A model generated the notes under the pieces. That model worked only from the letters and a program-made list of their open reading frames with translations. It was not told the DNA's origin and searched no databases. From sequence record OR515477.1: DNA of 64,000 nt; one strand, written 5' to 3'. This document shows positions 29,502 to 56,378 of this stretch, in pieces (the stretch's first letter is position 1; every line of letters begins with the position of its first letter). This stretch comes from Escherichia phage Es2. Made by a program: the position numbers and the translations under genes.

Positions 29502-29510
29502 GGAGACTGT

Positions 29511-30812: not shown

Positions 30813-30890
30813 GGGGGGTTGGCTCAGAGGCGACGGCGCCTGGCTGTAGACCGGGTATACCACGCGGAGGTTCGAGTCCTCCATCCCCCA
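30813..30890 (+). tRNA. tRNA-Tyr (anticodon GTA)
   Basis: Acceptor GGGGGGT/ATCCCCC, anticodon loop CTGTAGA, extended variable region, T-arm GGAGG-TTCGAGT-CCTCC, CCA encoded. Confidence 0.6.
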
Positions 30891-30911
30891 CCAAATTACT
30901 AAGGAAATAAT

Positions 30912-31457
30912 ATGCACAATAAGTTAATAAATGAACTTCAAAAAAGACAAATAATAACAAAAACTAAGGAGTTTGATATAACTCCGGATTTAATAGTTGA
31001 ATGTTCGAAAGTTTACTTAGAGTTAAGTAACACAAAGGCTAAGAAAGTCTCTTTAGGAGATCTTAGATATAATGTTAAACTATTGTGCCTATCCTTAATT
31101 AAATTTAAGCAAGAAAATAAACTTCTCATAAAAGAAGGTTTCATATATTTTATAGCAAATAAGGCGTGGCCCAATTATTTTAAGATTGGTATGTCAGCTA
31201 ACCCAAAGAAACGTCTGGCTAACTATCAAACATATAGTCCTTTTAGGGATTATACAATGCTACACTGGTCTTTCTGGTTTGACAGAAAGGAAGGTGAAAA
31301 ATTTGTACATAGTCTCTACCAAGACAGAGATCATGAATGGGTTAGGCTGCCACAAAGAAAACTAAATAAAATATTTGAGCAAATAAATAAACTTTCTGGC
31401 CTAGAACACTTGGTACAGAAAGTTAATAGAGAAATAGTTAATGCACCTATCGTCTAA
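30912..31457 (+). CDS. GIY-YIG-like (T5orf172-type) domain protein
   Basis: FIYFIANKAWPNYFKIGMSANPKKRLANYQTYSP resembles the GIY-YIG/T5orf172 fold; 3' end overlaps tRNA-Glu. Confidence 0.5.
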   Translation: MHNKLINELQKRQIITKTKEFDITPDLIVECSKVYLELSNTKAKKVSLGDLRYNVKLLCLSLIKFKQENKLLIKEGFIYFIANKAWPNYFKIGMSANPKKRLANYQTYSPFRDYTMLHWSFWFDRKEGEKFVHSLYQDRDHEWVRLPQRKLNKIFEQINKLSGLEHLVQKVNREIVNAPIV

Positions 31458-31514
31458 TGGTTAGGACATCAGGATTTCAATCTGAGAATCGGAGTTCAAT
31501 TCTCCGTGGGTGTA
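31443..31514 (+). tRNA. tRNA-Glu (anticodon TTC)
   Basis: Acceptor GCACCTA/TGGGTGT, anticodon loop ATTTCAA, T-arm CGGAG-TTCAATT-CTCCG, CCA encoded. Confidence 0.7.
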
Positions 31515-31523
31515 CCAAATTCT

Positions 31524-31599
31524 GCATTCCTAGAGTGTTACTGGACAGCATGTCGGTCTCCAAAACCGTACGGTCTAGGTTCGAGTCCTAGTAGGTTTG
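31524..31599 (+). tRNA. tRNA-like, possible tRNA-Trp (anticodon CCA)
   Basis: Good T-arm CTAGG-TTCGAGT-CCTAG and anticodon loop CTCCAAA, but acceptor stem pairing is poor; ends approximate. Confidence 0.35.
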
Positions 31600-31608
31600 C
31601 CAAAATTT

Positions 31609-31680
31609 GCACCTTTAGCTGAGATGGATTAGCGCTTGCCTGAAGAGCTTGAGAGGTTCGTTCGATTCGAACAGGGTGCA
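31609..31680 (+). tRNA. tRNA, possible tRNA-Phe (anticodon GAA)
   Basis: Acceptor GCACCTT/AGGGTGC, T-arm GTTCG-TTCGATT-CGAAC, CCA encoded; anticodon stem weak (loop CTGAAGA). Confidence 0.5.
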
Positions 31681-31685
31681 CCAAT

Positions 31686-31973
31686 TTGAGGGAGCTGCTG
31701 ATGCATCCTGAAAACTTCTTTATTTACTGCGCTGATAAGTCGCTGAAACGTAGAATTAACAAAGTCTATCATTATAGTGCTAGTCAACAGCCTTATGTAT
31801 ACGCTTTTGACGGTGATCACATTCCACTAGAACAATTATCTTGTGATTACATGATATTGAAGAACTTTGATGAGACGAAGATCTCGAGCGTTCATAATCG
31901 ACAGAATCCATTGACGTGGAAATATAAGAAGAAAAAGAAAGGCATCAAATTCTTAAAAAATGTAGTTGCTTAG
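31686..31973 (+). CDS. hypothetical protein
   Basis: 95 aa ORF; a promoter overlaps its 3' end. Confidence 0.45.
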   Translation: MRELLMHPENFFIYCADKSLKRRINKVYHYSASQQPYVYAFDGDHIPLEQLSCDYMILKNFDETKISSVHNRQNPLTWKYKKKKKGIKFLKNVVA

Positions 31974-31994
31974 TTTCCAAAAGTTCTGTATAAT
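31966..31994 (+). promoter_or_regulatory. early-type sigma70 promoter
   Basis: TTGCTT, 17 bp, TGTATAAT. Confidence 0.6.
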
Positions 31995-32005
31995 AATTAC
32001 ATAAA

Positions 32006-32248
32006 TTGAACTGGAGAAGCAACATGACAGAACAAGAATTGAATGAACGTAAGCTGGTAATGCTTCGCTTACTAAATATTTTCTCTGGTATGGACGGTGG
32101 AATTGACTTTGTTCATCTACGTTCTTTCGTAGAAGAAGCTGAAGGCGAATCTATCACTAAAATCCTTAAACACATGGGATTACTTTTAGATGCTGCTAAT
32201 GTGGCTACTGAATATAAAATAGAAGATCTACCGGAGCGTGTTAAATGA
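32006..32248 (+). CDS. hypothetical protein
   Basis: 80 aa ORF after promoter 31966-31994. Confidence 0.5.
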   Translation: MNWRSNMTEQELNERKLVMLRLLNIFSGMDGGIDFVHLRSFVEEAEGESITKILKHMGLLLDAANVATEYKIEDLPERVK

Positions 32249-32436
32249 AACGATTAGTTAGATTTAAGTGTTGTGGTTCCGAGCACATTTTCACACATCT
32301 TCGTGAATTTAAAATGTGTGATTGTGGTAAATCAGGCTATGACTCAGGAGATGGGTTCTACACCCGTACTCTAGGGAACTTCAATGATCTAGAATTTGAA
32401 GATCTCGAAAAACAAGATAAACCGACCGTTGGCTGA
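32245..32436 (+). CDS. small Cys-rich protein
   Basis: 63 aa, CCGSEH...CDCG motif; 3' end overlaps tRNA-Cys. Confidence 0.45.
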   Translation: MKRLVRFKCCGSEHIFTHLREFKMCDCGKSGYDSGDGFYTRTLGNFNDLEFEDLEKQDKPTVG

Positions 32437-32495
32437 ATGGCTTAGGCGAAGGATTGCAAATCCTTTTTATGTGAGTTCAAATCTCATGCGGTCGT
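32423..32495 (+). tRNA. tRNA-Cys (anticodon GCA)
   Basis: Acceptor CGACCGT/GCGGTCG, anticodon stem-loop AAGGA-TTGCAAA-TCCTT, T-arm GTGAG-TTCAAAT-CTCAT, CCA encoded. Confidence 0.7.
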
Positions 32496-32501
32496 CCAAT
32501 T

Positions 32502-32640
32502 TGCTGAAAGAATTGTTAAATCAATTCAGGCACGCGTAGGAACACTGTCTCCGTAATTGAAAGATGAGGCACGGTTTGGAGAGGTATGCCGCTACACGCT
32601 ACGGTGCTAACTCCGTCTAGGTGAAAATCCTAGTCAGCAA
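32502..32640 (+). ncRNA. long tRNA-like element (~139 nt)
   Basis: 7 bp acceptor-like pairing TTGCTGA/TCAGCAA, D-arm-like hairpin GAATTG-TTAAAT-CAATTC, T-arm-like CTAGG-TGAAAAT-CCTAG; no ORF. Confidence 0.35.
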
Positions 32641-32650
32641 TATAAATTTA

Positions 32651-32730
32651 GGGTCGTTAGCCAAGCGGTTTGGCGGTGGACTGTTAATCCATGTCGAAAG
32701 ACAACGTAGGTTCGAATCCTACACGGCCCG
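32651..32730 (+). tRNA. tRNA-Asn (anticodon GTT)
   Basis: Acceptor GGGTCGT/ACGGCCC, anticodon loop CTGTTAA, extended variable region, T-arm GTAGG-TTCGAAT-CCTAC, CCA encoded. Confidence 0.65.
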
Positions 32731-32835
32731 CCAAATTCTGTGTAGAGTTAAGTAAACCGGTAGCCAACCAGCTATCATTGCTGATATCGAATTCAGCCAC
32801 AGATACCATTTTCATTAATAACTGAGGAAACAAGC

Positions 32836-33021
32836 ATGTCCAAGAATGTAATTGCACAGCTAGAAGTTCATCGTGATAACACAGCTAATAACATTAAGTG
32901 CCGACAAAAAGATATTGAAGCTCGAAAGGCTGATCTTTTAATGAGTATTCGAGAGCTTAATGTACGGAAAGAGTTTCTTAAAGAACTTAATGCAGCTATT
33001 GAAAAACTCAAAGTTGAGTAA
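32836..33021 (+). CDS. hypothetical protein
   Basis: 61 aa ORF, coiled-coil-like. Confidence 0.4.
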   Translation: MSKNVIAQLEVHRDNTANNIKCRQKDIEARKADLLMSIRELNVRKEFLKELNAAIEKLKVE

Positions 33022-33030
33022 ATAAATTAT

Positions 33031-33104
33031 GCGACCGGGGCTGGCTTGGTAATGGTACTCCCCTGTCACGGGAGGGAATGTGGGTTCAAATCCCATCGGT
33101 CGCG
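33031..33104 (+). tRNA. tRNA-Asp (anticodon GTC)
   Basis: Acceptor GCGACCG/CGGTCGC, anticodon stem-loop CTCCC-CTGTCAC-GGGAG, T-arm GTGGG-TTCAAAT-CCCAT, CCA encoded. Confidence 0.75.
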
Positions 33105-33132
33105 CCAAATTAATTTAGTATGAGAATATACT

Positions 33133-33480
33133 ATGCGTAATGCTAAAGAAGAGTTGTTACTTGCCTTAAAAAATACTAATTCTGAAGTTAAATGTATTAA
33201 AATAGAATTCGGGTATTATGGGGATAAAAAAGTTTGGGTATTACCTTTAGGTTATACAGAAAAAGATATTGAGGATTTTCTTAATAATCTAGACTTTAAG
33301 TACGATTCTGGGTATGGTGGGCAATTACTTTATGGTAATGTATGGTTTGCCGACGGAACTTGGCTAGAACGTGGGGAATACGATGGTGCTGAGTGGTGGG
33401 AGTACAAAGCTACCCCGGAAATTCCAGAGGAATGCCGAACAATTAATGGTGAAGTAGATAATACTTTACTATTAAACTAA
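33133..33480 (+). CDS. hypothetical protein
   Basis: 115 aa ORF. Confidence 0.5.
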   Translation: MRNAKEELLLALKNTNSEVKCIKIEFGYYGDKKVWVLPLGYTEKDIEDFLNNLDFKYDSGYGGQLLYGNVWFADGTWLERGEYDGAEWWEYKATPEIPEECRTINGEVDNTLLLN

Positions 33481-33602
33481 AAGAATTTCAGTGCAGAACA
33501 CGGAGCTAGCAATTCGGAAGTGCTGACTCATGATAAGCTGCCTATGTACTTGCTAAGCGGTCGTGTCCAAGACTCGGACTCTTGCACTGAAAACAATCAA
33601 AC

Positions 33603-33723
33603 ATTCTAGCGTGGTTGATGGGGAAACCAGCTTGGCTAGGGCAGAAGCTCGTTCGATTCGAGTGAAAGAATGGTTCTCGTAAGTCCGCACAAGTGATAGC
33701 AGGTTCGAGTCCTGTCTAGAATG
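33603..33723 (+). ncRNA. long tRNA-like element (~121 nt)
   Basis: Perfect 7 bp acceptor pairing ATTCTAG/CTAGAAT, T-arm GCAGG-TTCGAGT-CCTGT, internal second T-arm-like GCTCG-TTCGATT-CGAGT; too long for a canonical tRNA. Confidence 0.4.
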
Positions 33724-33731
33724 ACACTATA

Positions 33732-33859
33732 AAGTTTACTTATTATGTAGGTTCCGATAGATCGGCGGGTCTATTCTGGCATTTAAGAGAAGTCTCGCAA
33801 ACTTCTTTGTCAGCCGTGGGGTTGGTAGCCTCCAGGTGGCCTACACAATAAGTAAATTT
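33732..33859 (+). ncRNA. long hairpin element (20 bp stem enclosing ~88 nt)
   Basis: AAGTTTACTTATTATGTAGG (33732-33751) pairs with CCTACACAATAAGTAAATTT (33840-33859); sub-hairpins inside; no ORF. Confidence 0.4.
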
Positions 33860-33872
33860 ATTAAAAATTCAT

Positions 33873-33901
33873 TTGCTATTTTTCTTAATTATCTGTATAA
33901 T
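33873..33901 (+). promoter_or_regulatory. early-type sigma70 promoter
   Basis: AAAAATTCATTTGCTA, 17 bp, TGTATAAT. Confidence 0.6.
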
Positions 33902-33933
33902 ATATTTTATAAAGTGAAGAGAAGGAAAGCAAA

Positions 33934-34092
33934 ATGAAACACAAGATAGCCCAAGTTTTTATGGCATTATGGTGTATGCCAATAGCTATAACAGCATTTA
34001 ATCTAGATACTTTTACTATAGAAGAAAAATGTATCGGATTAGTTAGCGGCTTTAGTATGCTTGGCTTATCTTTGTTGTGGTTGAAGAAATAA
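33934..34092 (+). CDS. small hydrophobic protein
   Basis: 52 aa ORF MKHKIAQVFMALWCMPIAITAF... after promoter 33873-33901; below track cutoff. Confidence 0.4.
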   Translation: MKHKIAQVFMALWCMPIAITAFNLDTFTIEEKCIGLVSGFSMLGLSLLWLKK

Positions 34093-34096
34093 TATT

Positions 34097-34171
34097 CTCC
34101 GTGTAGCTCAGTTTGGCCAGAGCGTTTCGTTTGGGGCGATAGGGTCGGGGGTTCAAATCCTCCCACGGAGA
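34097..34171 (+). tRNA. tRNA-Pro (anticodon TGG)
   Basis: Acceptor CTCCGTG/CACGGAG, D-arm GCTC..GAGC, anticodon loop TTTGGGG, T-arm GGGGG-TTCAAAT-CCTCC, CCA encoded. Confidence 0.7.
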
Positions 34172-34180
34172 CCAAACAAT

Positions 34181-34255
34181 TGCGGGTTAGATCTCTGGTA
34201 GAGATCGCTAGTCTCATAAGCTAGAAAGAGGTAGGTTCGATTCCTGCACCCGCTT
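34181..34255 (+). tRNA. tRNA-Met/Ile2 (anticodon CAT)
   Basis: Acceptor TGCGGGT/ACCCGCT (1-72 mismatch), anticodon stem-loop CTAGT-CTCATAA-GCTAG, T-arm GTAGG-TTCGATT-CCTGC, CCA encoded. Confidence 0.65.
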
Positions 34256-34278
34256 CCATTTTAATAGAGGATTTCGAA

Positions 34279-34446
34279 ATGAAAGTATTTCGATTAGTAG
34301 TAAGTGACAAACGGTTAGGTAAGAATACATCAAAATCCCTACTCGCTCATTACGGTAAAAATTGGGATGAAGTAATGGCAGAGTTTAGTACTAATCACCC
34401 TTACTTGAAAGTTCACTCTATTAAAGAAGTATATAATGGTTACTAA
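34279..34446 (+). CDS. hypothetical small protein
   Basis: 55 aa ORF with GAGGA RBS between tRNAs; below track cutoff. Confidence 0.4.
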   Translation: MKVFRLVVSDKRLGKNTSKSLLAHYGKNWDEVMAEFSTNHPYLKVHSIKEVYNGY

Positions 34447-34447
34447 T

Positions 34448-34523
34448 AGATCGCTAGCTCAATAGGTTTAGTAGCATCCGACTTTTAATCGGAAGGTTCT
34501 GGGTTCGAGTCCCAGGCGATCTA
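34448..34523 (+). tRNA. tRNA-Lys (anticodon TTT)
   Basis: Acceptor AGATCGC/GCGATCT, anticodon stem-loop TCCGA-CTTTTAA-TCGGA, T-arm CTGGG-TTCGAGT-CCCAG, CCA encoded. Confidence 0.75.
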
Positions 34524-34530
34524 CCAAATT

Positions 34531-34601
34531 GCTCGGTTAGTTTAATGGGAGAACCCCGTCTTTACACGGCGGTTGAGATAGTTCAATTCTATCACCGAGT
34601 A
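34531..34601 (+). tRNA. tRNA-Val (anticodon TAC)
   Basis: Acceptor GCTCGGT/ACCGAGT, anticodon loop TTTACAC, T-arm GATAG-TTCAATT-CTATC, CCA encoded. Confidence 0.7.
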
Positions 34602-34623
34602 CCAATTAACTCAAAATAAGGAA

Positions 34624-34983
34624 TTGCAAATGCAATTATCAAGCAAGATTCAAGGTTATTTCGGTCATGTAACAATGGAGTTCGCTATCTCTAAAGGTTG
34701 GGACTTCGAACAAGATTTAGCTGAGTTCTACAAAGATATTGATCTGAACGTACCGTACATGGGACTTTCTACTGGTCAGGAGATCACAGAAGCCGATGTA
34801 TTCAAGGCAAGTCAAGGTGAGGTAACACCTAGTTTTGCCGAGTTCTGGTTAGGCATTACGTTAAAAGAAGATGCACCAGATAGTGGTGTACTAATGTCTA
34901 GTATGCACTCTGGAAGTTCCGATTACCTTTTCATTAGCGATGTTAAGGAAATACAAGAAGTCTGCAAAAATGTACTTGCTTGA
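34624..34983 (+). CDS. hypothetical protein
   Basis: 119 aa ORF with AAGGA RBS. Confidence 0.5.
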   Translation: MQMQLSSKIQGYFGHVTMEFAISKGWDFEQDLAEFYKDIDLNVPYMGLSTGQEITEADVFKASQGEVTPSFAEFWLGITLKEDAPDSGVLMSSMHSGSSDYLFISDVKEIQEVCKNVLA

Positions 34984-35004
34984 TGCTTAATTTCTTGTTA
35001 TAAT
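34976..35004 (+). promoter_or_regulatory. early-type sigma70 promoter
   Basis: TTGCTT, 17 bp, TATAAT; followed by hairpin GATGAGGA-GAAA-TCCTCATC. Confidence 0.55.
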
Positions 35005-35242
35005 ATTTATATAAATTGATGAGGAGAAATCCTCATCATAGTTCACTAAGGTATTAGCTCGACCTAGGACTGGCTGCCAAAAAGCACGATCCCTACGATT
35101 CGGGAAAAGTTCTAGATTGGTCCACTAGATTCAGCGGCAACTGAATAGTGTATTGGGTTTGCGAGATGACGTAGTTCCTTCCGCTCTAAGCGAAGGTGCT
35201 GTAGTTACGCCGAGCTAATAGCCTTAGTAAACTAAAGAATTT

Positions 35243-35318
35243 GGGGAATGGGTCTGCATGGAGTGGACACCTCGCTTGCACCGAGGACATCAGAACGGTT
35301 CGATTCCGTTATTCTCCA
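35243..35318 (+). tRNA. tRNA-Ala (anticodon TGC)
   Basis: Acceptor GGGGAAT/ATTCTCC, anticodon stem-loop CCTCG-CTTGCAC-CGAGG, T-arm AACGG-TTCGATT-CCGTT, CCA encoded. Confidence 0.7.
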
Positions 35319-35326
35319 CCAAATAC

Positions 35327-35400
35327 GCGTGATTGATGGAATGGGCATACATACCGTCCTTAGAAGTCGGGTTTTGAGGGTTCGAATCCCTTGTCACGCA
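35327..35400 (+). tRNA. tRNA with anticodon TAG (Leu-decoding; class I architecture)
   Basis: Acceptor GCGTGAT/GTCACGC, anticodon loop CTTAGAA, short variable arm, T-arm GAGGG-TTCGAAT-CCCTT, CCA encoded. Confidence 0.55.
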
Positions 35401-35515
35401 CCAAATTTGATGGTCAGAGTAAATTAAACCTACTATCTCGGTTGAGCTGTTTTAATGGGTTCGAATCCCAGCGGGGCGTAACTGCCTGGTGTGATAGAGG
35501 CATCATCTTATTATT

Positions 35516-35603
35516 GGAAGAGCAAATCGAATTGGCGACGAAAACCGCTTGGAAAGTGGCTGACTGGTAAAACGGCTTGAGAGTTCAAATCTCTCCTCTT
35601 CCG
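35516..35603 (+). tRNA. tRNA-Ser (anticodon GGA)
   Basis: Acceptor GGAAGAG/CTCTTCC, anticodon loop TTGGAAA, 18 nt variable arm, T-arm GAGAG-TTCAAAT-CTCTC, CCA encoded. Confidence 0.7.
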
Positions 35604-35618
35604 CCAAACAATTTATAT

Positions 35619-35710
35619 GGTAGGTCAATCCAATGGCTGGCGCTGGACTCCGACTTGAAATCGGTTGATCGTAGTGATACGGTGTAAGGGTTCGATCCCC
35701 TTACCTACCT
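35619..35710 (+). tRNA. tRNA-Ser (anticodon TGA)
   Basis: Acceptor GGTAGGT/ACCTACC, anticodon loop CTTGAAA, 20 nt variable arm, T-arm AAGGG-TTCGATC-CCCTT, CCA encoded. Confidence 0.7.
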
Positions 35711-35716
35711 CCAAAT

Positions 35717-35850
35717 CTTGAAGTATGCCGGAATCGGTAGACGGGGCTGCCTAAAAGGTTTATAGGGAACATCCACTCCCTGCAACATACCTCATAAAGC
35801 GGCTGAGATAAATGGTCTATCTCGTGAAGGTTCAAGTCCTTCTGCTTCTT
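35717..35850 (+). ncRNA. long tRNA-like element (~134 nt)
   Basis: Acceptor-like pairing TGAAGTA/TGCTTCT (6 of 7), T-arm GAAGG-TTCAAGT-CCTTC, internal D-arm-like hairpins; no CCA, no ORF. Confidence 0.35.
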
Positions 35851-35964
35851 GATACATCTATGGCTCAAAGTGTAACGGTGCTATTTGATGCTCTTGGTAA
35901 GACTTCCCCGACATGCGTTCGGGAGTAAGCTGCTAAGACTAGAGTAGAAGAGTTTCTGAGAGCC

Positions 35965-36084
35965 GCCACAATTGAAAATTCGTACTCGTCTTGAGCTGCG
36001 CGCAATAGGAGATAACTTGATTAGTATTCTAGAACATGCTAATTGAGGAAGGTTTCGCTAACCCTGCGAGTTTTCAATTGTGGC
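35965..36084 (+). ncRNA. long hairpin element (18 bp stem enclosing ~85 nt) abutting tRNA-His
   Basis: GCCACAATTGAAAATTCG (35965-35982) pairs with CGAGTTTTCAATTGTGGC (36067-36084); the 3' arm overlaps the tRNA-His acceptor. Confidence 0.4.
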
Positions 36085-36153
36085 TATATCATAATTGGTT
36101 AATGATCCTGATTGTGAATCAGGCCTATGTGGATTCGAATTCCACTAGCCACC
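36080..36153 (+). tRNA. tRNA-His (anticodon GTG)
   Basis: Acceptor GTGGCTA/TAGCCAC, D-arm TCAT..ATGA, anticodon stem-loop CCTGA-TTGTGAA-TCAGG, T-arm GTGGA-TTCGAAT-TCCAC, CCA encoded. Confidence 0.7.
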
Positions 36154-36180
36154 CCAAATTAACTTAAATAGGAAATAAAT

Positions 36181-36387
36181 ATGGCTGATTTCTGCAAACA
36201 ATGCTCCATTGATATGTGGGGTAAAGATACTGGTGATCTTTCTGGTTTGATTACAGAAGCTGAAGTTAAAGAAGGCTACGGTGCTGCTGTGATCTGCGAA
36301 GGATGCGGAGTTATTCGAGTAGATCATGAAGGCAAACGTTTAGAAGATCCAAAAAGTATTAAGAAGAAGGTTAGCCAAGTAGGTTAA
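36181..36387 (+). CDS. small zinc-ribbon protein
   Basis: CKQCS...CEGCG motifs, 68 aa; 3' end overlaps tRNA-Gln. Confidence 0.5.
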   Translation: MADFCKQCSIDMWGKDTGDLSGLITEAEVKEGYGAAVICEGCGVIRVDHEGKRLEDPKSIKKKVSQVG

Positions 36388-36437
36388 GGCTGGGGTCTCT
36401 GAAATCCTGATCAGTGGTTCGAATCCACTACCTTCTG
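36365..36437 (+). tRNA. tRNA-Gln (anticodon CTG)
   Basis: Acceptor AGAAGGT/ACCTTCT, anticodon loop CTCTGAA, T-arm AGTGG-TTCGAAT-CCACT, CCA encoded. Confidence 0.6.
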
Positions 36438-36446
36438 CCAAACAAT

Positions 36447-36521
36447 TGGGGATTAGCTTAGCTTGGCCTAAAGCTTCGGCCTTTGAAGTCGAGATCATTG
36501 GTTCAAATCCAATATCCCCTG
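36447..36521 (+). tRNA. tRNA-Gln (anticodon TTG)
   Basis: Acceptor TGGGGAT/ATCCCCT, D-arm GCTT..AAGC, anticodon stem-loop TCGGC-CTTTGAA-GTCGA, T-arm ATTGG-TTCAAAT-CCAAT, CCA encoded. Confidence 0.65.
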
Positions 36522-36534
36522 CCAGCTAAATTAA

Positions 36535-36607
36535 TGCGTGATTAGTTCAGTGGCTAGAATAACTGGCTTCCAACCAGTAGACACGAGTTCGACTCTCGTA
36601 TCCCGCA
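36535..36607 (+). tRNA. tRNA-Gly (anticodon TCC)
   Basis: Acceptor GCGTGAT/ATCCCGC, anticodon stem-loop ACTGG-CTTCCAA-CCAGT, T-arm ACGAG-TTCGACT-CTCGT, CCA encoded. Confidence 0.7.
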
Positions 36608-36624
36608 CCAAATAAGGAAACGTT

Positions 36625-36846
36625 ATGCACGTTTTTGAGTTTCGTAATAAAAATACTGATAAGCGAGTTATCATTATTGGAGAAACATACCGAGCATATG
36701 AACAAACTGACGGCTCTGTTATCTTGAATGATGAGAAAGGAGGTTTTAGCTTTTATCCAGAAGAACCTTATGAAGAGTTTCGTACTAAGTTTCTTTTACC
36801 AGACTGGCTAGCAGTAGCCGAGCAACGAGAATCCGAAGATGGCTGA
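36625..36846 (+). CDS. hypothetical protein
   Basis: 73 aa ORF, AAGGAAAC RBS. Confidence 0.5.
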   Translation: MHVFEFRNKNTDKRVIIIGETYRAYEQTDGSVILNDEKGGFSFYPEEPYEEFRTKFLLPDWLAVAEQRESEDG

Positions 36847-37001
36847 TAACCTAAAATTAAGGGTCGACAAACAAAAGAAATACATTGAGGTTGAATTAGG
36901 CGAAGAACGATTAAAGCTAACTTTCGAGTTTCTTCAGCAGTTGGCTATGACAGTTATGACTGATAAGTCTCCTGTTATTGAAAAAGAAATCCCGTTGAAA
37001 T
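36840..37001 (+). CDS. hypothetical small protein
   Basis: About 53 aa ORF (MADNLKLRVDKQKKYIEV...) overlapping the previous stop; coordinates +/-2. Confidence 0.35.
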
Positions 37002-37012
37002 AACGGGATCAT

Positions 37013-37085
37013 CGCTCCTAAAGCATTGCTGGCGATGCAGTTGCCTTGTAAGCATCTGAACCGGGTTCGATTCCTGGTGGGAGCA
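37013..37085 (+). tRNA. tRNA-Thr (anticodon TGT)
   Basis: Acceptor GCTCCTA/TGGGAGC, D-arm GCAT..ATGC, anticodon loop CTTGTAA, T-arm CCGGG-TTCGATT-CCTGG, CCA encoded. Confidence 0.65.
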
Positions 37086-37103
37086 CCAAATTTAAAAATT
37101 CAT

Positions 37104-37132
37104 TTGCTTTCTCTCTTATTTATTGTTATAAT
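37104..37132 (+). promoter_or_regulatory. early-type sigma70 promoter
   Basis: AAAAATTCATTTGCTT, 17 bp, TATAAT. Confidence 0.6.
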
Positions 37133-37162
37133 ATTCATATAAATTAATGAGAGGGAAGCCAA

Positions 37163-37456
37163 ATGAAACGTTATCTTTCTGTTGTGTTCCAAACTGGTGG
37201 TCAACGCTATACTTACGAATTTCCTGGCTCTTGGAAGATCAAAGAAGGTGATCAAGTAGTAGTGTTAACACCGCGTGAGGGTTTTAAGGTAGTAACGGTT
37301 AAGCAAGTATTTCCAAAAGAGCGTGAACCAGCTAAAGGCATTCGCTATAAGATGATTCATGGTGTAGTTCGTCAAGTACCACGAGCGGAAGTCGAAATCA
37401 AAGTAGATAAAGATGGTAAACTTAAATATACCTCTTGCTTAGACGAGTTGCTATAA
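37163..37456 (+). CDS. hypothetical protein
   Basis: 97 aa ORF after promoter 37104-37132. Confidence 0.5.
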   Translation: MKRYLSVVFQTGGQRYTYEFPGSWKIKEGDQVVVLTPREGFKVVTVKQVFPKEREPAKGIRYKMIHGVVRQVPRAEVEIKVDKDGKLKYTSCLDELL

Positions 37457-37662
37457 TGAGGATTACTTTTACAGAAAAGATCATGAGTAATGGTGTTATG
37501 ATCATTACCGCATGGGATGGTAATCAGTGGTGTAGTGTTTCAGGTATTAAGCCTGAAGAACAAACACTAGATAATATCTCAAAGATTAAGCGAAGAATGA
37601 CAGAACGTGCACGACTTCCAGGTGCACCTAGAAATGGCAAACGTTCTGCTGCAAAATGTTAA
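37456..37662 (+). CDS. hypothetical protein
   Basis: 68 aa ORF starting at overlapping TAATG. Confidence 0.45.
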   Translation: MRITFTEKIMSNGVMIITAWDGNQWCSVSGIKPEEQTLDNISKIKRRMTERARLPGAPRNGKRSAAKC

Positions 37663-37663
37663 T

Positions 37664-37737
37664 GCTTCGGTAGCTTAGCGATCTAAAGCACTCGGCTGAT
37701 AACCGAGAGATCGGGGGTTTAAATCCCTCCCGGAGTA
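37664..37737 (+). tRNA. tRNA-Ile (anticodon GAT)
   Basis: Acceptor GCTTCGG/CCGGAGT, D-arm GCTT..AAGC, anticodon stem-loop CTCGG-CTGATAA-CCGAG, unusual T-loop TTTAAAT, CCA encoded. Confidence 0.7.
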
Positions 37738-37836
37738 CCAAATTTAGGAATTAAGACTATGCGTCCAGGAAAGTTTAAAAAAGCTAATTGGTCTAAAGAG
37801 TATAAAGAATACTTACTTAGTCTAGTAAAACATAAT

Positions 37837-37909
37837 AGTTAGTTGGCAGAGTGGTTATGCACCTCCTTCATACGGAGCGACTACAGTGGTTCAAATCCAC
37901 TACTAACTA
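37837..37909 (+). tRNA. tRNA-Met/Ile2 (anticodon CAT)
   Basis: Acceptor AGTTAGT/ACTAACT, anticodon loop TTCATAC, T-arm AGTGG-TTCAAAT-CCACT, CCA encoded. Confidence 0.65.
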
Positions 37910-37949
37910 CCATTAAAAGAGCTAGAGATAGCTAACTTTAGGAGCAGCT

Positions 37950-53475: not shown

Positions 53476-53822
53476 TGATATTTGGTAAAACAAAAATAGC
53501 CCCTGCTGGGGAAAATTTAATTACTCTTAGCCTCTACTATAAGGATGAAAATGTAGAAATAGAAACATTAGAGTATGTTCTTATAAATACTAATAAGCCT
53601 AAAATAGGAGAGTTACTTGGTATAATCTCTAATATCTCTGATAGGGAAGATATTCCAAGTATAACACCAAAGAATATAGCTCACTTAGCACAACAATTAG
53701 GAATCTTGTGGTATAAAGTAGATCTTCCAGCTAAAGAAAGAACCAAAGGAACCTTTGCAGAGATCGCAAGAAAACCTAAGTCAGAAAAGAAAGAAACAGG
53801 GGAGCAAGCGTCTGATATATGA
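53475..53822 (+). CDS. hypothetical protein
   Basis: 115 aa ORF. Confidence 0.5.
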   Translation: MIFGKTKIAPAGENLITLSLYYKDENVEIETLEYVLINTNKPKIGELLGIISNISDREDIPSITPKNIAHLAQQLGILWYKVDLPAKERTKGTFAEIARKPKSEKKETGEQASDI

Positions 53823-54532
53823 TTAAAGAAGCCGAAAAATTAAAACGTCTCATCCAGCTAGCGCGGGGTGCTACACAAAAGAGTCTTTCCCAGCTAACTA
53901 ATGAAGAAAAATATGCAGTAATGTTTTTAGGAGATCATTATCCTGCTAGGTGGGATAAAGGTAAGATCAAGTATGATCGTGATGCAAAACAAGTTGTTTG
54001 GTCAGGCTCATATGTAGAAGTGAATAAAGCATTAAAGGCTTTAGATCCTGAAGCAAAAGGTTTCTCTTCTAATGCTATTCATATTCTAATTGATGAAGAT
54101 CTCCCAAGATTTAAGGAAGCATCATTTAAAGAAGCATTAGCTAGTGAAGATCTTATTCCTTTTAAACACGGTAAGTATGCACATCTTCCACCACTAGAAA
54201 AAGAGAAACCTACTCTAGTTAAAGATGAAGTTTATCGTGGGATTGGCACAATGCTAGCGAGTTTGACTGTAGCTCTCCATAAAGATCTAGAGTTAACGCC
54301 CCTAGAAAACGCTGTGCATTTCATGTGCCATAAGTACGAGGATACATTTAAAGAGCTATGTAAGTCGCTAGGAATGCCAAGTTACACGATATTAAACTAT
54401 GCTCCTGAATATACTAGAGCAGCTCGTGGAACTATGGATTACGATGATACAGGATCCACTGCTTCCTATTTAGCAACTTATATCTACTTCGCATCCTTAG
54501 GTATCAAACTCAAATCCAAGAAGGAGGAATAA
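53819..54532 (+). CDS. hypothetical protein
   Basis: 237 aa ORF; last gene before the repeat region. Confidence 0.5.
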   Translation: MIKEAEKLKRLIQLARGATQKSLSQLTNEEKYAVMFLGDHYPARWDKGKIKYDRDAKQVVWSGSYVEVNKALKALDPEAKGFSSNAIHILIDEDLPRFKEASFKEALASEDLIPFKHGKYAHLPPLEKEKPTLVKDEVYRGIGTMLASLTVALHKDLELTPLENAVHFMCHKYEDTFKELCKSLGMPSYTILNYAPEYTRAARGTMDYDDTGSTASYLATYIYFASLGIKLKSKKEE

Positions 54533-54547
54533 AAGTTAACAAAAAGT

Positions 54548-54576
54548 TCTTGCATTCTCATACCCAAACATGTTAT
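54548..54576 (+). promoter_or_regulatory. sigma70-like promoter (TTGCAT, 17 bp, TATAAT)
   Basis: ttcTTGCATtctcatacccaaacatgtTATAATaatc. Confidence 0.5.
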
Positions 54577-54582
54577 AATAAT

Positions 54583-54750
54583 CTCATAGATTAACAACTA
54601 CTCTAGTTGATTAACTCTAGGGGCGATGATTATTACACGAATGTCTCGTATAGCTTGCGGCCTAGCAACAGCGGTATGACGGCATGAGTACTCACGTAAT
54701 TAATCACGCGCCCACAGGAGAGACTCTCATGAAATTGGGGGTCTCTTTTT
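54583..54750 (+). ncRNA. candidate small RNA unit (promoter to terminator, no ORF)
   Basis: Bounded by promoter 54548-54576 and hairpin AGAGAC...GTCTCT plus TTTTTCTTT (~54713-54750); internal inverted repeat TTAACAACT...AGTTGATTAA. Confidence 0.35.
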
Positions 54751-55042
54751 CTTTATATTATTTAAATATTTTTAATGGCAATATCTGTGTTCAAGATGAT
54801 ACACCTGTTGCCGCTCATCTGCTAGGATGGCACAACACTTTCTTCTAGACTCCTAAGTTTCTAGGAATAGTTGAGCACTAACTCTAGAGTTTACATTAAA
54901 CTTTAAATCTGTTTCTCTAGTCAACTCAGGCGGTTTTCATATTCCTAGAAACTCTAGCAATAGGCGGTTAATACAGGGCGGTTTTAGGGAGGGCGGTTAT
55001 TTCTAGAAGACATTTTTTGAAAACACATTTCTAGAAATTACT

Positions 55043-55643
55043 GTCGTATTTGCACACTGCATTTCTAGAAATTTATGGTCGGATTTGCACAAACGCCTAA
55101 GTTTTTAGGAACATATAATCTCTTGAAAATGGCAGCATTATTTCGGGCCGAAGGCCCGTGATTGCCTGAGTTTTTAGAGCCACAAGAATTTTCACTTGTC
55201 AAGCTATTTTGCCCCATTTAGCAAATAAAATTTTACTTTATCTCCTCTAATCTCAAATTAACCCAAATCTTCTCAACTCTTCCCCAAAATACCCGCAAAT
55301 CAGGTGCTCCGCACCAAACATGCGCCTCTCCCACAGTTCCCCCAAAATTTCTCTCGCTCTCTCAACTTCTCCCCAAACATACACAATCACACACCCTCCA
55401 ATCGAAGCCACAAAAATCTTGTCGGATTCGCACATCTTAATCCTAGAAAAACCGTGTCGGATTTGCACATACCCCACAGGATTCGAACGCAGTTCGAGAT
55501 TGCTGGAGTTTTTAGGAAAATTCATTGTCGGATTCGCACACTATAAAAATTTTTCGGGTCGGATTTGCACACTACCAAAAATTGTCGGATTCGCACATAC
55601 ACGCCCGCACGTAACACCCGTGGAGCAATGTCGGATTTGCACA
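55043..55643 (+). repeat. eight dispersed copies of a 14 bp motif GTCGGATT(T/C)GCACA
   Basis: Copies at about 55043, 55078, 55421, 55456, 55527, 55558, 55584 and 55630; interspersed TTCTAGAA palindromes and GGCGGTT repeats. Confidence 0.7.
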
Positions 55644-55646
55644 AAA

Positions 55647-55668
55647 GCGCAGGGCAATTGCCCTGCGC
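55647..55668 (+). repeat. perfect palindrome GCGCAGGGC-AATT-GCCCTGCGC
   Basis: 9 bp arms with 4 nt centre; read directly. Confidence 0.8.
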
Positions 55669-55669
55669 T

Positions 55670-55900
55670 AAATGAGAATAAAAATAAGAATCATTCTCAT
55701 TTAGAAAGCGGAATGAGAATGATAATAATTCGCATTTAGAAAGCGAAATGAGAATCAATCTCATTTAAGAACGGAAACGAAAATTATTCAGGAAGTGAAA
55801 CGATTCTCATTTAGAAAGTGGAATGATTCTCATTTAGAAAGTGGAATGCAAATGATAATGATTCGCATTTAAGAATGGAAGTGAGAAACACTGTTATTTA
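55670..55900 (+). repeat. tandem ~28-30 bp direct repeats (CTCATTTAGAAAG[CT]GGAATGA-like), about 6 units
   Basis: Repeated ATTCTCATTTAGAAAGCGGAATGAGAATGA-like units with variants; no ORF. Confidence 0.7.
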
Positions 55901-56010
55901 AGTTATCCACAGACTTATCAACAGCACGATTTGACTTGACAAAATTCTAGCCATTTTGAGGCGTTATCAACAGACTTATCAACAGCTTATCCTACTGTAT
56001 AAATATACAG
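55881..56010 (+). repeat. left composite inverted repeat (IR-A and IR-B) with DnaA-box-like TTATCCACA
   Basis: IR-A 55881-55918 is 37/38 identical to the reverse complement of 59205-59242; IR-B 55971-56010 is 38/40 identical to the reverse complement of 59113-59152. Confidence 0.75.
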
Positions 56011-56207
56011 TATTCCTATGCAGTGAATAATTCTAATATACAGCTAAAACGCTCTCAAACGCATTCTAACGCGTTTAATTTTGGTGGGGATACTAAAACA
56101 CGGGCAAAATTGGAGGAGGCTTAGAAATTAGTTAGCTCGCTAACGATCACACAAGGCGACACGTAACATCCTAACCATTAGCAGGCTAACCATCGCGGGC
56201 GCGGTCA

Positions 56208-56228
56208 AATGAGAATGATTCTCATTTG
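56208..56228 (+). repeat. palindrome AAATGAGAAT-G-ATTCTCATTT
   Basis: 10 bp perfect arms; same half-site as the 55670-55900 repeats. Confidence 0.75.
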
Positions 56229-56378
56229 AGAATTGGGGGCACTTCCTGATAGTTGCGCCCCGTGATTATTACAGTAGTGGGCAACCTTTACGCTTTGCCC
56301 ATTCCCGCCACTCATCTTGATGTCTAGACTTGCGACGGCGTACTAAAAACCATTTATACCAGTGATTAAACCATCGTT

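What the first reader, a model, noticed from the sequence alone, without database searches (positions are those of the whole stretch)
54548..54750. Promoter-to-terminator unit without an ORF: candidate small RNA
A sigma70-like promoter (TTGCAT, 17 bp, TATAAT at 54548-54576) is followed about 140 nt later by a hairpin plus U-run (~54713-54750), with only an internal imperfect inverted repeat and no ORF in between. It lies at the edge of the repeat region.
Basis: seen in the sequence. Interest (0 to 1): 0.5.

Follow-up and report, generated by a model that had tools for sequence, protein, structure and literature searches.

The report
Unannotated structured small RNA gene, T5-like phage
Between the last leftward early gene and the repeat-rich injection-stop region of this T5-like phage lies a conserved gene, with its own promoter, for a roughly 170-base highly folded RNA that encodes no protein; nobody has annotated it, and its function is unknown.

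Summary
The -35 TTGCAT is at 54550-54555, the spacer is 18 nt (not 17), and an extended -10 TGtTATAAT ends at 54579. The terminator hairpin is 54716-54749, followed by a T-run.

The window is a T5-like phage (Demerecviridae), read in reverse of the T5 map. [quoted passage not shown]

The same unit occurs at this position in roughly 430 Tequintavirus and Epseptimavirus records. It comes in seven sequence types; T5 itself carries it at AY587007 10565-10799, minus strand. Promoter hexamers and the TG are kept while spacers diverge.

All types fold into a 5' hairpin, one long rod-like hairpin and a 3' hairpin with a U-rich tail. Compensatory changes, 34 G·U pairs against no A·C mismatches, and a better fold on the + strand in all seven types point to a structure selected in the RNA. 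No ORF is conserved, Rfam has no match, and no record or paper I could search describes it.

Verdict: a real, previously undescribed structured ncRNA gene, a new member of a known kind. Expression and function are untested. A clean terminator exists only in this window's type.

The parts
54530..54549 (+). A-rich stretch upstream of the promoter (TAAAAGTTAACAAAAAGTTC). It starts at the stop codon of the upstream ORF and could act as an UP element.
   Evidence: Sequence. Related A-rich sequence (AACGTTAACAAAATCTTC) precedes the -35 in types A-D whatever the upstream gene is. UP-element function is inferred.
54550..54555 (+). -35 hexamer TTGCAT. It matches TTGACA at 3 of 6 positions; relatives have TTGACA or TTGACG here.
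54571..54579 (+). Extended -10, TGtTATAAT, after an 18-nt spacer.
   Evidence: TGT plus TATAAT or TATCAT is invariant in 26 promoter variants. The class occurs 13 times in the window against 0.26 expected.
54579..54593 (.). 15-bp palindrome TAATCT-CAT-AGATTA, centred on the predicted transcription start.
   Evidence: Read. T5 has TAACTC-TAT-GAGTTA in the same place, which is three compensatory arm changes (sequences). It could be an operator, or an RNA hairpin in read-through transcripts. Its function is not tested.
54586..54586 (+). Predicted transcription start: an A, 7 nt after the -10.
   Evidence: Inference from promoter geometry. It has not been mapped.
54587..54619 (+). P1, the 5' hairpin.
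   Evidence: MFE structure. On 8 variants, 3 pairs changed on both sides and none on one side only; 0 of 500 shuffles reach the covariation score.
54620..54713 (+). P2, a long unbranched rod-like hairpin. The base is conserved in types A, A2, B and B2. The apical half differs between types.
   Evidence: P2 z-scores run from -3.5 to -8.8 in the seven types. The T5-type P2 has 3 compensatory pairs and 99% of cells paired. Within types, variation avoids paired columns.
54716..54758 (+). P3, the intrinsic terminator: stem-loop 54716-54749 and a U-rich run to about 54758. It contains the invariant UGGGGG.
   Evidence: -18.5 kcal/mol, hairpin abutting the U-run. It is canonical only in type A. Other types have a weaker hairpin followed by UUUACUUUU.

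Best explanation
This is a single-copy gene for a structured non-coding RNA of T5-like phages. The RNA is about 165-170 nt here and 166-200 nt in relatives.

How I think it works, with each step marked as shown or inferred:
1. Transcription. Host sigma-70 RNA polymerase starts at an extended -10 promoter of the same class as the phage's early promoters. The promoter's conservation and class are shown; its activity is inferred.
2. Timing. The unit lies outside the terminal repeat and beyond the injection stop region. It therefore enters the cell only at second-step transfer, where it is among the first DNA to arrive. Its position is shown; its timing is inferred.
3. Folding. The transcript folds into a short 5' hairpin, one long rod-like hairpin and a 3' hairpin with a U-tail. 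The structure and its selection at RNA level are shown by comparison. That the end hairpins stabilise the RNA and let it accumulate is inferred.
4. Mode of action. The rod's apical sequence is freely exchangeable between close relatives. Its helical shape, the 5' end (AUAGAUUAA), the CUCUAG element at the rod's base and a 3' UGGGGG are kept. I therefore infer that the RNA acts through its shape and these few motifs, most likely by binding a phage or host protein as a decoy, sponge or cofactor. Long antisense pairing looks less likely.
5. Second role of the terminator. No terminator lies between the upstream ORF and the promoter. In this window's type, the RNA's terminator therefore also ends the leftward early operon. 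That keeps transcription out of the injection-stop and terminal-repeat junction. The arrangement is shown; the insulating effect is inferred.
For: Identity and position:
- The window is a T5-like phage.
- The unit maps 0.4-0.6 kb outside the left terminal repeat. It lies beyond Repeat Region 3 as Davison defines it, 9194-10409.

Promoter:
- 13 sites of the class in the window against 0.26 expected.
- 26 promoter variants keep TTGACA/TTGACG/TTGCAT, TGT and TATAAT/TATCAT. Spacers are 17-18 nt with at least 9 unrelated spacer sequences.

Structure:
- All seven types share the same three-hairpin architecture.
- The whole-RNA z-score for the window is -6.3. P2 z-scores run from -3.5 to -8.8.
- The + strand folds better than the - strand in 7 of 7 types.
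- There are 34 G·U pairs and no A·C 1x1 mismatches.
- P1 has 3 pairs changed on both sides and none changed on one side only; 0 of 500 shuffles reach the score.
- The T5-type P2 has 3 compensatory pairs plus 5 wobble-compatible changes; 0 of 500 shuffles reach the score.
- Within types, variable columns make up 4.8% of unpaired and 1.1% of paired positions in P1+P2 (Fisher p = 0.0007). Six of the 8 variable paired columns keep the pair.

Not coding:
- The mini-ORF MKWGxIYF is shifted out of frame by G-run indels, reduced to AUG-UAA in some variants and absent in type D.
- The MIIT... ORF is 11 to 45 aa long and absent in types C, D and E (sequences).

Independence and spread:
- The upstream gene differs between relatives: a 237-aa ORF, or a T5orf172 homing endonuclease.
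- Roughly 430 phage records carry the unit. None of the records I inspected (tables and fetched regions) annotates it as an RNA.
- Rfam has no match for any type.
Against: - No expression data were available, so the RNA has not been seen.
- In the window the -35 matches only 3 of 6 positions, and the generic promoter scan missed the site.
- A canonical terminator exists only in type A. In the other six types the 3' hairpin is weak or does not abut the U-run. That region is about ten times more variable than P1+P2 and shows no pairing bias. The 3' end of the family, and the insulator role, are therefore uncertain outside this type.
- The compensatory changes are few and largely reflect single lineage splits.
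- No protein partner or target is identified, so the 'acts by shape or protein binding' step is inference from a pattern of conservation.
- The discriminator (AATCTC) lacks the ATATT element that Klimuk et al. report for known T5 early promoters (PMC7472727). The temporal class is therefore unknown.
Confidence: 0.5

Rival explanations
1. The unit is only the 3' untranslated end and terminator of the leftward early operon. It would act as an insulator that keeps transcription out of the injection-stop and terminal-repeat region. On this view the promoter-like sequence is incidental or minor, and the hairpins merely stabilise the upstream mRNA.
For: - Only 17 nt separate the upstream stop codon (54530-54532) from the -35, with no terminator between them. 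Operon transcripts must therefore run through the unit and end at the same terminator.
- The convergent pre-early operon has its own terminator on the other side of the repeats. The repeat region is thus bracketed by terminators.
- HdH2 annotators marked only a terminator here.
Against: - The promoter hexamers and the TG are conserved while spacers diverge, and the site belongs to a highly non-random promoter class.
- The unit persists when the upstream gene is exchanged.
- The part under the strongest structural constraint is P1+P2, not the terminator. The terminator is the most variable part and is weak in six of the seven types. That is the opposite of what an insulator-only model predicts.
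Confidence: 0.17
2. The unit acts in cis on the DNA. Transcription from the strong promoter toward the terminal-repeat junction would form a primer or R-loop. The structured 5' part would guide hybrid formation at the invariant G-run and the AT-rich stretch, as in ColE1 RNA II or mitochondrial LSP-CSBII. The primer or R-loop would start replication, or duplicate the terminal repeat in concatemers, as proposed for promoters near the T7 ends.
For: - UGGGGG is invariant in all seven types although its pairing partner changes.
- It is followed by a U/A-rich stretch that is AT-rich by inspection.
- Next comes a sequence block at 54790-54850 that is nearly invariant in all types.
- After that come iteron-like repeats: GGCGGTT four times, TGTCGGATTTGCACA, and paired DnaA-type boxes.
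- The terminator is weak in most types, so polymerase would often read on.
- The T5 origins have not been defined at sequence level. 'Multiple internal origins' are reported (PMC3632103).
Against: - Davison, citing electron-microscopy work, places the T5 origins near the middle of the genome.
- In this window's type the terminator is strong (-18.5 kcal/mol), which would stop most transcription before the junction.
- No C-run partner for the G-run is conserved in the template.
- The GC-skew turn at 54-55 kb is explained by convergent gene orientation.
- Nothing here tests hybrid formation.
Confidence: 0.1
3. The hairpins are DNA-level palindromes. They would form a cruciform or protein-binding sites belonging to the repeat-rich injection-stop region, and would not be an RNA structure.
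For: - The unit borders the repeat region.
- ACTCTAG occurs at 54600, 54614, 54881 and 54951, and CTAG is about five times enriched over 54580-55120.
- A palindrome centred on +1 co-varies between T5 and the other types, although half of it lies upstream of the predicted start.
Against: - The predicted helices contain 34 G·U pairs and no A·C mismatches. On DNA or on the other strand these would be 34 mismatches.
- The + strand folds better in 7 of 7 types.
- Several within-type substitutions are U-A to U·G or G·U to G-C, which are neutral only in RNA.
- No repeat family of the region includes the unit.
Confidence: 0.05
4. The unit encodes a very small protein: the 8-aa MKWGxIYF peptide inside P3, the MIIT... 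ORF inside P2, or the 54-aa ORF 54684-54848.
For: - An SD-like GGAG/GAGG lies 7-8 nt before the AUG of P3 in several types.
- Some GenBank records annotate 'hypothetical protein' over the region.
Against: - G-run length varies from 4 to 7, which shifts the frame.
- AUG-UAA occurs in most type A2 variants, and type D has no AUG.
- The window's 54-aa ORF ends after 8-11 codons in other types.
- The MIIT ORF is 11, 17, 25 or 45 aa long and absent in types C, D and E (sequences).
- The AUG sits inside the terminator stem.
Confidence: 0.03
5. The RNA is a classical base-pairing regulatory sRNA, Hfq- or ProQ-assisted, that targets host or phage mRNAs.
For: - It has a stand-alone promoter and, in type A, a terminator with a long U-tail.
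- Short conserved segments exist that are partly unpaired: the 5' AUAGAUUAA, and the apical UUGCGAC loop shared by types A2 and B, with variants in A and B2.
- The arrangement matches 3'-UTR sRNAs that have their own promoter, such as DapZ or MicL (from general knowledge).
Against: - About 70% of the nucleotides are paired.
- The apical domain is not conserved between types.
- No complementarity beyond chance 9-11-mers was found in the 64-kb window.
- There was no match in 5,426 E. coli genomes at E <= 10. That search cannot see 7-12-nt seeds.
Confidence: 0.15

Closest known systems
3'-UTR-type sRNAs with their own promoter that share the terminator of the upstream mRNA (for example DapZ and MicL in enterobacteria; from general knowledge)
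   Same: The promoter sits directly after the upstream coding sequence. No terminator lies in between. The sRNA and the operon mRNA end at the same intrinsic terminator.
   Different: Those sRNAs carry a conserved single-stranded seed and need Hfq. This RNA is almost fully helical and has no identified seed or target. It is encoded by a virulent phage.
Phage phi29 prohead RNA (pRNA, Rfam RF00044; from general knowledge)
   Same: The size is similar (about 170 nt). It is made from an early sigma-70-type promoter and transcribed toward the left end of the genome. Sequence diverges strongly between related phages while the secondary structure is kept.
   Different: There was no Rfam match. The unit lies about 10.7 kb from the physical end, next to the inner border of a 10-kb terminal repeat. 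I did not examine the packaging genes of T5-like phages, and nothing here links the RNA to packaging. The pRNA's intermolecular loop pairing was not examined.
Short constitutive promoter-to-terminator transcripts of lambdoid phages: lambda oop RNA (77 nt) and lambda 6S RNA, the 194-nt pR'-tR' transcript (from general knowledge)
   Same: A strong host-polymerase promoter is followed within 80-200 nt by an intrinsic terminator, giving a small abundant phage RNA.
   Different: oop is antisense to cII. The pR'-tR' transcript is the leader of a Q-antiterminated late operon. Here nothing is encoded opposite, and nothing lies downstream in the same orientation for about 5 kb.
ColE1 RNA II replication primer (from general knowledge)
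   Same: It is a structured transcript from a strong sigma-70 promoter, with a G-run near the place where it would have to hybridise. Here the G-run is followed by AT-rich DNA and repeats.
   Different: RNA II is about 550 nt, and an antisense RNA I controls it. No antisense promoter, RNase H site or mapped origin is known here. In the window's type a strong terminator follows the G-run.
Stable small RNAs of T-phages encoded in tRNA clusters: T4 species 1 and 2 (bands C and D) and T5 RNA 1, 107 nt (from memory of the 1970s-80s literature; not checked here)
   Same: They are small, stable, non-tRNA phage transcripts of unknown function.
   Different: Those map inside the tRNA gene region, which is 26.8-37.9 kb in this window, about 17 kb away from this unit. 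This unit has its own promoter and terminator.

Membership tests
Sigma-70 promoter with extended -10 (the T5 PN25-like class) | -10 hexamer close to TATAAT, preceded by TGn | tested here: met
   TGtTATAAT at 54571-54579. It is invariant in 26 variants, apart from TATCAT in the T5 type.
Sigma-70 promoter with extended -10 (the T5 PN25-like class) | -35 hexamer close to TTGACA, 17 ± 1 nt upstream | tested here: inconclusive
   The window has TTGCAT (3 of 6) with an 18-nt spacer. Relatives have TTGACA or TTGACG at 17-18 nt. An extended -10 can compensate for a weak -35 (general knowledge).
Sigma-70 promoter with extended -10 (the T5 PN25-like class) | More frequent than chance, and placed in front of transcription units | tested here: met
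   13 sites against 0.26 expected. Nine of the other twelve are followed by a ribosome-binding site and an ATG.
Sigma-70 promoter with extended -10 (the T5 PN25-like class) | Initiates transcription in vivo or in vitro | not testable with these tools
   No expression data were available. The ATATT discriminator reported for T5 early promoters (PMC7472727) is absent; the sequence here is AATCTC.
Intrinsic (Rho-independent) terminator | Stable G+C-containing hairpin immediately followed by a U-run | tested here: met
   In the window: 14-pair stem at 54716-54749, -18.5 kcal/mol, followed by a U-run. This is not met, or only weakly met, in types A2, B, B2, C and D.
Structured non-coding RNA gene | Secondary structure conserved with compensatory changes, on the transcribed strand | tested here: met
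   The number of independent compensatory events is small.
Structured non-coding RNA gene | No conserved open reading frame | tested here: met
   All candidate ORFs are broken, shifted or absent in some types.
Structured non-coding RNA gene | A discrete transcript is detected | not testable with these tools
   No RNA-seq or Northern data were available. The Bas33 RNA-seq paper reports gene-level values only (PMC13250531).
Any Rfam family, including 6S RNA, phage pRNA, SRP RNA, tmRNA and Y RNA | Match to the family covariance model | tested here: not met
   No hit at gathering thresholds in the window. Nothing relevant at E <= 10 around the unit. Nothing at E <= 1 in eight loci covering the other six sequence types.
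Hfq-type base-pairing sRNA | Conserved single-stranded seed with complementary targets | tested here: inconclusive
   About 70% of the RNA is paired. The window holds no complementarity beyond chance. E. coli genomes gave no match at E <= 10. Seeds of 7-12 nt cannot be assessed this way.
Hfq-type base-pairing sRNA | Terminator hairpin with a long U-tail as the Hfq-binding module | tested here: met
   Type A: GGGGGUCUCUUUUUCUUU. Binding itself is not testable here.
T5 Repeat Region 3 / injection stop signal | Made of the region's repeat families (DRD, DRA, IRC/IRD, palindromes) and lying at 9194-10409 of T5 | tested here: not met
   No repeat family includes 54550-54758. The T5 copy lies at 10565-10799, outside 9194-10409.
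Small protein gene | Reading frame and length conserved among relatives | tested here: not met
   G-run indels, AUG-UAA and a missing AUG.

The most novel reading that the evidence does not exclude
The RNA, or the act of transcribing it, may work at the DNA junction it sits beside. This is the first promoter to enter the cell at second-step transfer, and it points at the terminal-repeat border. From there it could prime or open the DNA for replication or terminal-repeat duplication, in an RNA II-like or T7 end-promoter-like role. Alternatively it could serve as a structural RNA cofactor of the injection or packaging machinery, in a pRNA-like role. Either reading would tie a new RNA to the unexplained two-step DNA transfer and terminal-repeat biology of T5.
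Probability: 0.1. Interest if true: 0.85.

Novelty: new member of a known kind. Interest (0 to 1): 0.5.

Why it matters
T5 is a classical model phage, and its relatives are widely used in work on phage defence and biocontrol. The non-coding stretch at the border between first-step and second-step DNA has so far been described only as repeats and DnaA boxes with no tested function (10.1101/866236; PMC10644984).

A conserved and probably abundant structured RNA at the edge of that stretch is a concrete, easily testable new player. It is present in roughly 430 sequenced phages, and in several genomes it has been mis-annotated as tiny hypothetical proteins. It would be among the first second-step sequences available for transcription.

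That position makes it a candidate for early events that still lack an explanation. Examples are the shut-off of pre-early expression, the protection of incoming DNA and the handling of the terminal repeat.

It also gives annotation pipelines and Rfam a new family to add. One caveat for the family is that only one of the seven sequence types has a clean terminator.

Tried and rejected
- Rfam: searched at gathering and at permissive thresholds, on the window and on loci of the other six sequence types. Nothing relevant. ARAGORN finds tRNAs only at 27-38 kb.
- Trans targets: a short-word BLAST of the RNA against the window gave only chance-level 9-13-mers. One curiosity came up: two adjacent 10-mers complementary to 54286-54306 inside the upstream ORF. 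They are not conserved in relatives. BLAST against 5,426 E. coli genomes found no match.
- Whole-RNA covariation on a sequence alignment of all types failed in the apical half of P2. The types cannot be aligned there. I used per-type thermodynamics, within-type substitution patterns and separate alignments of P1 and of the T5-type instead.
- More variants: scans of viral contigs and metagenomes mostly returned the same seven types.
- Distant relatives: loci encoding A1 homologues at 36-47% identity have no comparable long non-coding region. I could not recognise a homologous unit in them. I did not build a covariance model, so absence there is not established.
- GC skew as an origin signal: the turn at 54-55 kb is explained by convergent gene orientation.
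- Literature: six searches and seven papers read in part turned up no T5 transcript map or small RNA at this position. Bourguignon et al. 1976 on the T5 origins is not held. Older subscription papers (Wang et al. 2005; the Bujard promoter maps; the Ikemura and Ozeki small-RNA gels) could not be checked.
- One scripted dinucleotide shuffle timed out. It was replaced by mononucleotide shuffles and by the tool's own dinucleotide shuffles.
- One alignment used wrong T5 coordinates and was discarded.
Full report
**What the window is**

The 501 bases around the finding match 371 phage records, all T5-like (Demerecviridae; Tequintavirus and Epseptimavirus). The best matches are Salmonella phage VSe12, E. 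coli phage HdH2 and BF23 at 98.6-99.2% identity, on their minus strand at about 10.1-10.9 kb. The window's + strand is therefore the reverse of the standard T5 map.

In T5 the left terminal repeat ends at 10139 (AY587007) or 10219 (NC_005859). The injection stop signal is annotated at 9140-10149. The first early gene, T5.018, is leftward at 10936-11820.

The finding therefore sits after the last leftward early ORF (53819-54532). It sits before the repeat-rich non-coding region that straddles the terminal-repeat border. That border corresponds to about 55130-55180 in the window, judged from BF23's 9743-bp repeat and from sequence comparison with T5.

**The observation**

The sequence shows TTGCAT at 54550-54555, an 18-nt spacer, TG at 54571-54572 and TATAAT at 54574-54579.

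The -35 matches TTGACA at only 3 of 6 positions. This is why the generic promoter scan did not list the site. That scan also found no more promoter-like sites in the 6 kb than shuffles give (18 against 17.9). By itself the hexamer match is therefore weak evidence.

The terminator is clear. It has a 14-pair stem at 54716-54749, a 6-nt loop and then a T-rich run. The hairpin is -18.5 kcal/mol and abuts the U-run.

**Is the promoter real?**

Two results say yes.

First, the specific pattern TTG-N17-TGnTATAAT occurs 11 times in the window, and the N18 version twice. Shuffles give 0.16 and 0.10 respectively. The 54550 site is one of these 13. Nine of the other twelve are followed within about 45 nt by a ribosome-binding site and an ATG. 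This is therefore the phage's own strong promoter class. From memory, it is the PN25 type.

Second, I collected the homologous stretch from relatives: annotated phage records, IMG/VR contigs and metagenome contigs. This gave 26 distinct promoter variants.
- The -35 is TTGACA, TTGACG or TTGCAT.
- TGT plus TATAAT (TATCAT in T5) never changes.
- The spacer is 17-18 nt, with at least nine unrelated spacer sequences.

Conserved hexamers with a free spacer are what a working promoter looks like.

One reservation remains. The discriminator AATCTC lacks the ATATT element that Klimuk et al. describe for known T5 early promoters (PMC7472727). The temporal class is therefore open.

**The transcript**

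From the predicted start (A at 54586) to the U-run, the RNA folds at -61.3 kcal/mol, with z = -6.3. It forms three hairpins:
- P1 at 54587-54619
- P2 at 54620-54713
- P3 at 54716-54749

Relatives fall into seven sequence types:

| Type | Representative |
|---|---|
| A | this window, HdH2, VSe12 |
| A2 | locus L012 (an IMG/VR contig) |
| B | FFH1, OSYSP |
| B2 | LVR16A |
| C | SP01 |
| D | chee24 |
| E | T5 itself |

The types share the promoter, the first 9 nt, a CUCUAG element at the base of P2, an invariant UGGGGG and a U-rich tail. The apical half of P2 cannot be aligned between types. Yet every type gives the same architecture. P2 alone is a single unbranched hairpin with z from -3.5 to -8.8.

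**Is the structure selected, and at the RNA level?**

- The + strand folds better than the - strand in all seven types, by 2.5-16.5 kcal/mol.
- The predicted helices contain 34 G·U pairs and no A·C 1x1 mismatches. On DNA or on the other strand these would be 34 mismatches.
- P1 shows three pairs changed on both sides and none changed on one side only. None of 500 shuffles reaches the covariation score. Slid controls drop to 31-46% pairing.
- I aligned T5-type variants from 11 distinct sequences. In them P2 has three fully compensatory pairs (C-G/U-A, U-A/A-U, G-C/A-U) and five wobble-compatible single changes. 99% of cells are paired, and 0 of 500 shuffles reach the score.
- Within types, variable columns in P1+P2 are 4.8% of unpaired and 1.1% of paired positions (Fisher p = 0.0007). 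Six of the eight variable paired columns keep the pair.

The caveat is that the compensatory events are few and mostly trace to single lineage splits.

**The 3' end is the weak point of the family**

After P2, the sequence is about ten times more variable (11-12% of columns). It shows no pairing bias, and its 5' and 3' halves occur in many combinations. Only type A, the window's type, has a strong hairpin that abuts the U-run. In the other types a weaker CUCUCA/UGGGGG hairpin is followed by N4-UUUACUUUU.

The window's unit is therefore a clean promoter-to-terminator cassette. In T5 and many relatives the transcript may be longer or have mixed ends.

**Not coding**

Three candidate ORFs were checked, and all fail on conservation.
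- The AUG in P3 opens an 8-aa frame (MKWGxIYF) in several types. The G-run varies from 4 to 7, which shifts the frame. Most type A2 variants read AUG-UAA. Type D has no AUG.
- The window's 54-aa ORF (54684-54848) is a type-A accident of that same frame.
- An AUG at the base of P2 gives 11, 17, 25 or 45 aa in four types and is absent in three (sequences).

**Independence from the upstream gene**

In VAH1, DT571/2 and Sepoy, a T5orf172 homing-endonuclease gene lies directly upstream instead of the 237-aa ORF. The unit follows unchanged.

Because no terminator separates the ORF from the promoter in the window, operon transcripts must also run through the unit. The layout is that of a 3'-UTR sRNA with its own promoter.

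**Known or not?**

- Rfam has no match for any type.
- The three T5 records annotate nothing between the last repeat (10409) and ORF018 (10856).
- The T5 copy lies at 10565-10799 on the minus strand.
- HdH2 annotates only a terminator. Some records place small hypothetical CDSs on either strand.
- Davison's analysis ends Repeat Region 3 at 10409 and mentions no promoter, terminator or RNA.
- The BF23 paper.6-10.3 kb a non-coding region whose function has not been studied experimentally.

I found no T5 transcript map in the held library. Older subscription literature could not be read, so prior description cannot be excluded completely.

**Spread**

- Types A, A2, B and B2 are found in about 145 phage records.
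- Type E is in 141 records.
- Type C is in 111 records.
- Type D is in 35 records.

Hosts include Salmonella, Escherichia, Shigella, Citrobacter and Klebsiella. Type does not track host. Contigs encoding distant A1 homologues (36-47% identity) lack a comparable non-coding region.

**How it most likely works**

What is shown:
- a conserved promoter of the phage's strong class
- an RNA structure under selection on the transcribed strand
- no conserved ORF
- a fixed position next to the terminal-repeat junction

What is inferred:
- The RNA is abundant and stable, because it has hairpins at both ends.
- It is made as soon as second-step DNA enters. The unit lies about 1 kb beyond the approximate shear point of the first-step DNA that Davison calculates (coordinate 9618).
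- It acts through shape and a few fixed motifs rather than through long antisense pairing. The rod's sequence is exchangeable, and no complementarity was found.

I therefore favour a protein-binding or decoy type of structured RNA. In type A its terminator also closes the early operon. I put this at about 0.5.

The rivals are set out separately:
- a UTR or insulator only
- a classical base-pairing sRNA
- a cis-acting primer or R-loop at the repeat junction
- a DNA palindrome
- a micro-protein

**Verdict**

It is a new family of a familiar kind, not a new kind of system. Its interest comes from where it sits in a model phage, and from how easily it can be tested.

Noticed in passing
window 54790-54850: A block of about 60 nt (TTCAAGATGATACACCTGTTGCCGCTCATCTGCTAGGATGGCACAACACTTTCTTCTAGAC) is nearly invariant across all seven RNA types, T5 included, although the RNA unit 40-60 nt upstream differs greatly between types. 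It holds two interleaved inverted repeats: AGATGA/TCATCT and TGTTGCC/GGCACAACA. It is unannotated in T5 (AY587007 10469-10526) and lies between the RNA unit and the last DRD repeat. It could be a protein-binding site or a second hairpin-plus-U-rich stop.
   Followed up: partly
window 54579-54593: The palindrome TAATCT-CAT-AGATTA is centred on the predicted +1. T5 has TAACTC-TAT-GAGTTA at the same place, which is three compensatory arm changes. Half of it lies upstream of the predicted start. It therefore looks like an operator, or like a hairpin that forms only in read-through transcripts.
   Followed up: partly
window 54716-54758 and homologous loci: The 3' part of the unit is a hotspot of variation. 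About 11-12% of its columns vary within types, against 1-5% in P1+P2. Its 5' and 3' halves are recombined in many combinations. UGGGGG and UUUACUUUU stay fixed throughout. G-run length varies from 4 to 7.
   Followed up: yes
window 54834-56240: This is the repeat region, T5's Repeat Region 3 and injection stop signal. It contains:
- GGCGGTT four times (54929-54998)
- CATTTCTAGAAATT twice
- seven full copies of the core GGATT(T/C)GCACA of the TGTCGGATT(T/C)GCACA repeat (DRD in T5), at 55081-55643
- 23-28-nt AATGATTCTCATTTAGAAAG repeats (55681-56236)
- a pair of 24-nt repeats carrying TTATCCACA/TTATCAACA DnaA-type boxes (55902-55986)
- the palindrome AGCGCAGGGCAATTGCCCTGCGCT (55646-55669), which matches the T5 major nick site region.
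   Followed up: partly
window 54141-55065: CTAG is locally enriched: 13 sites in 54580-55120, about 24 per kb against 4.4 per kb in the whole window. ACTCTAG occurs at 54600, 54614, 54881 and 54951. The enrichment extends into the upstream ORF, with 8 CTAG sites in 54141-54414.
   Followed up: no
window 54286-54306: Inside the upstream ORF, the hairpin TCTAGAGTTAACGCCCCTAGA is complementary, in two swapped 10-nt halves, to nt 26-40 of the predicted RNA (UUAACUCUAGGGGCG). It is not conserved in relatives with other upstream genes, so it is probably chance or CTAG-motif related.
   Followed up: partly
window, 13 sites: 1550(-), 3941(-), 8498(-), 13902, 17499, 30287, 30659, 34976, 37104, 39438, 46569, 52120, 54550: These form a uniform class of strong promoters: an A-tract, TTGCTT-like -35, a 17-18-nt spacer and TGnTATAAT, often followed by ATAAATTGAT and a ribosome-binding site. 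There are 13 against 0.26 expected. Those at 13902, 30659 and 8498(-) are not followed at once by an obvious ribosome-binding site and could lead other non-coding or tRNA transcripts.
   Followed up: partly
window 3855-3941 (- strand): One of these promoters starts a transcript with the same CTCATAG initial sequence and a 5' hairpin (ATAGTT-TGAAAG-AACTAT). A ribosome-binding site and ATG follow about 55 nt later. 5' hairpins at +1 are therefore not unique to the RNA unit in this phage.
   Followed up: no
loci L020 (VAH1), L024 (DT571/2), L025 (Sepoy), positions 109-493: A 118-aa T5orf172 / putative homing endonuclease gene is inserted directly upstream of the RNA unit's promoter in some relatives. 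Homing and co-conversion could explain the sharp, mosaic boundaries between RNA sequence types.
   Followed up: no
window 26854-37912: A cluster of 23 tRNA genes by ARAGORN, or 24 by Rfam, all on the + strand. This is typical of T5-like phages.
   Followed up: no
window 55000-55600: Strong negative GC skew (-0.39 to -0.40) over the C-rich DRA-type repeats (TCTCAACTCTTCCCCAAA), just inside the terminal-repeat border.
   Followed up: no
locus L002 (T5, NC_005859) 2895-2935, minus strand: T5 has an extra hairpin, TCTCGGTGCACAATACCTGTACCGAGA, between the T5.018 stop codon and the RNA promoter. It is absent in the window. It could be a processing site or a weak stop for the operon.
   Followed up: no
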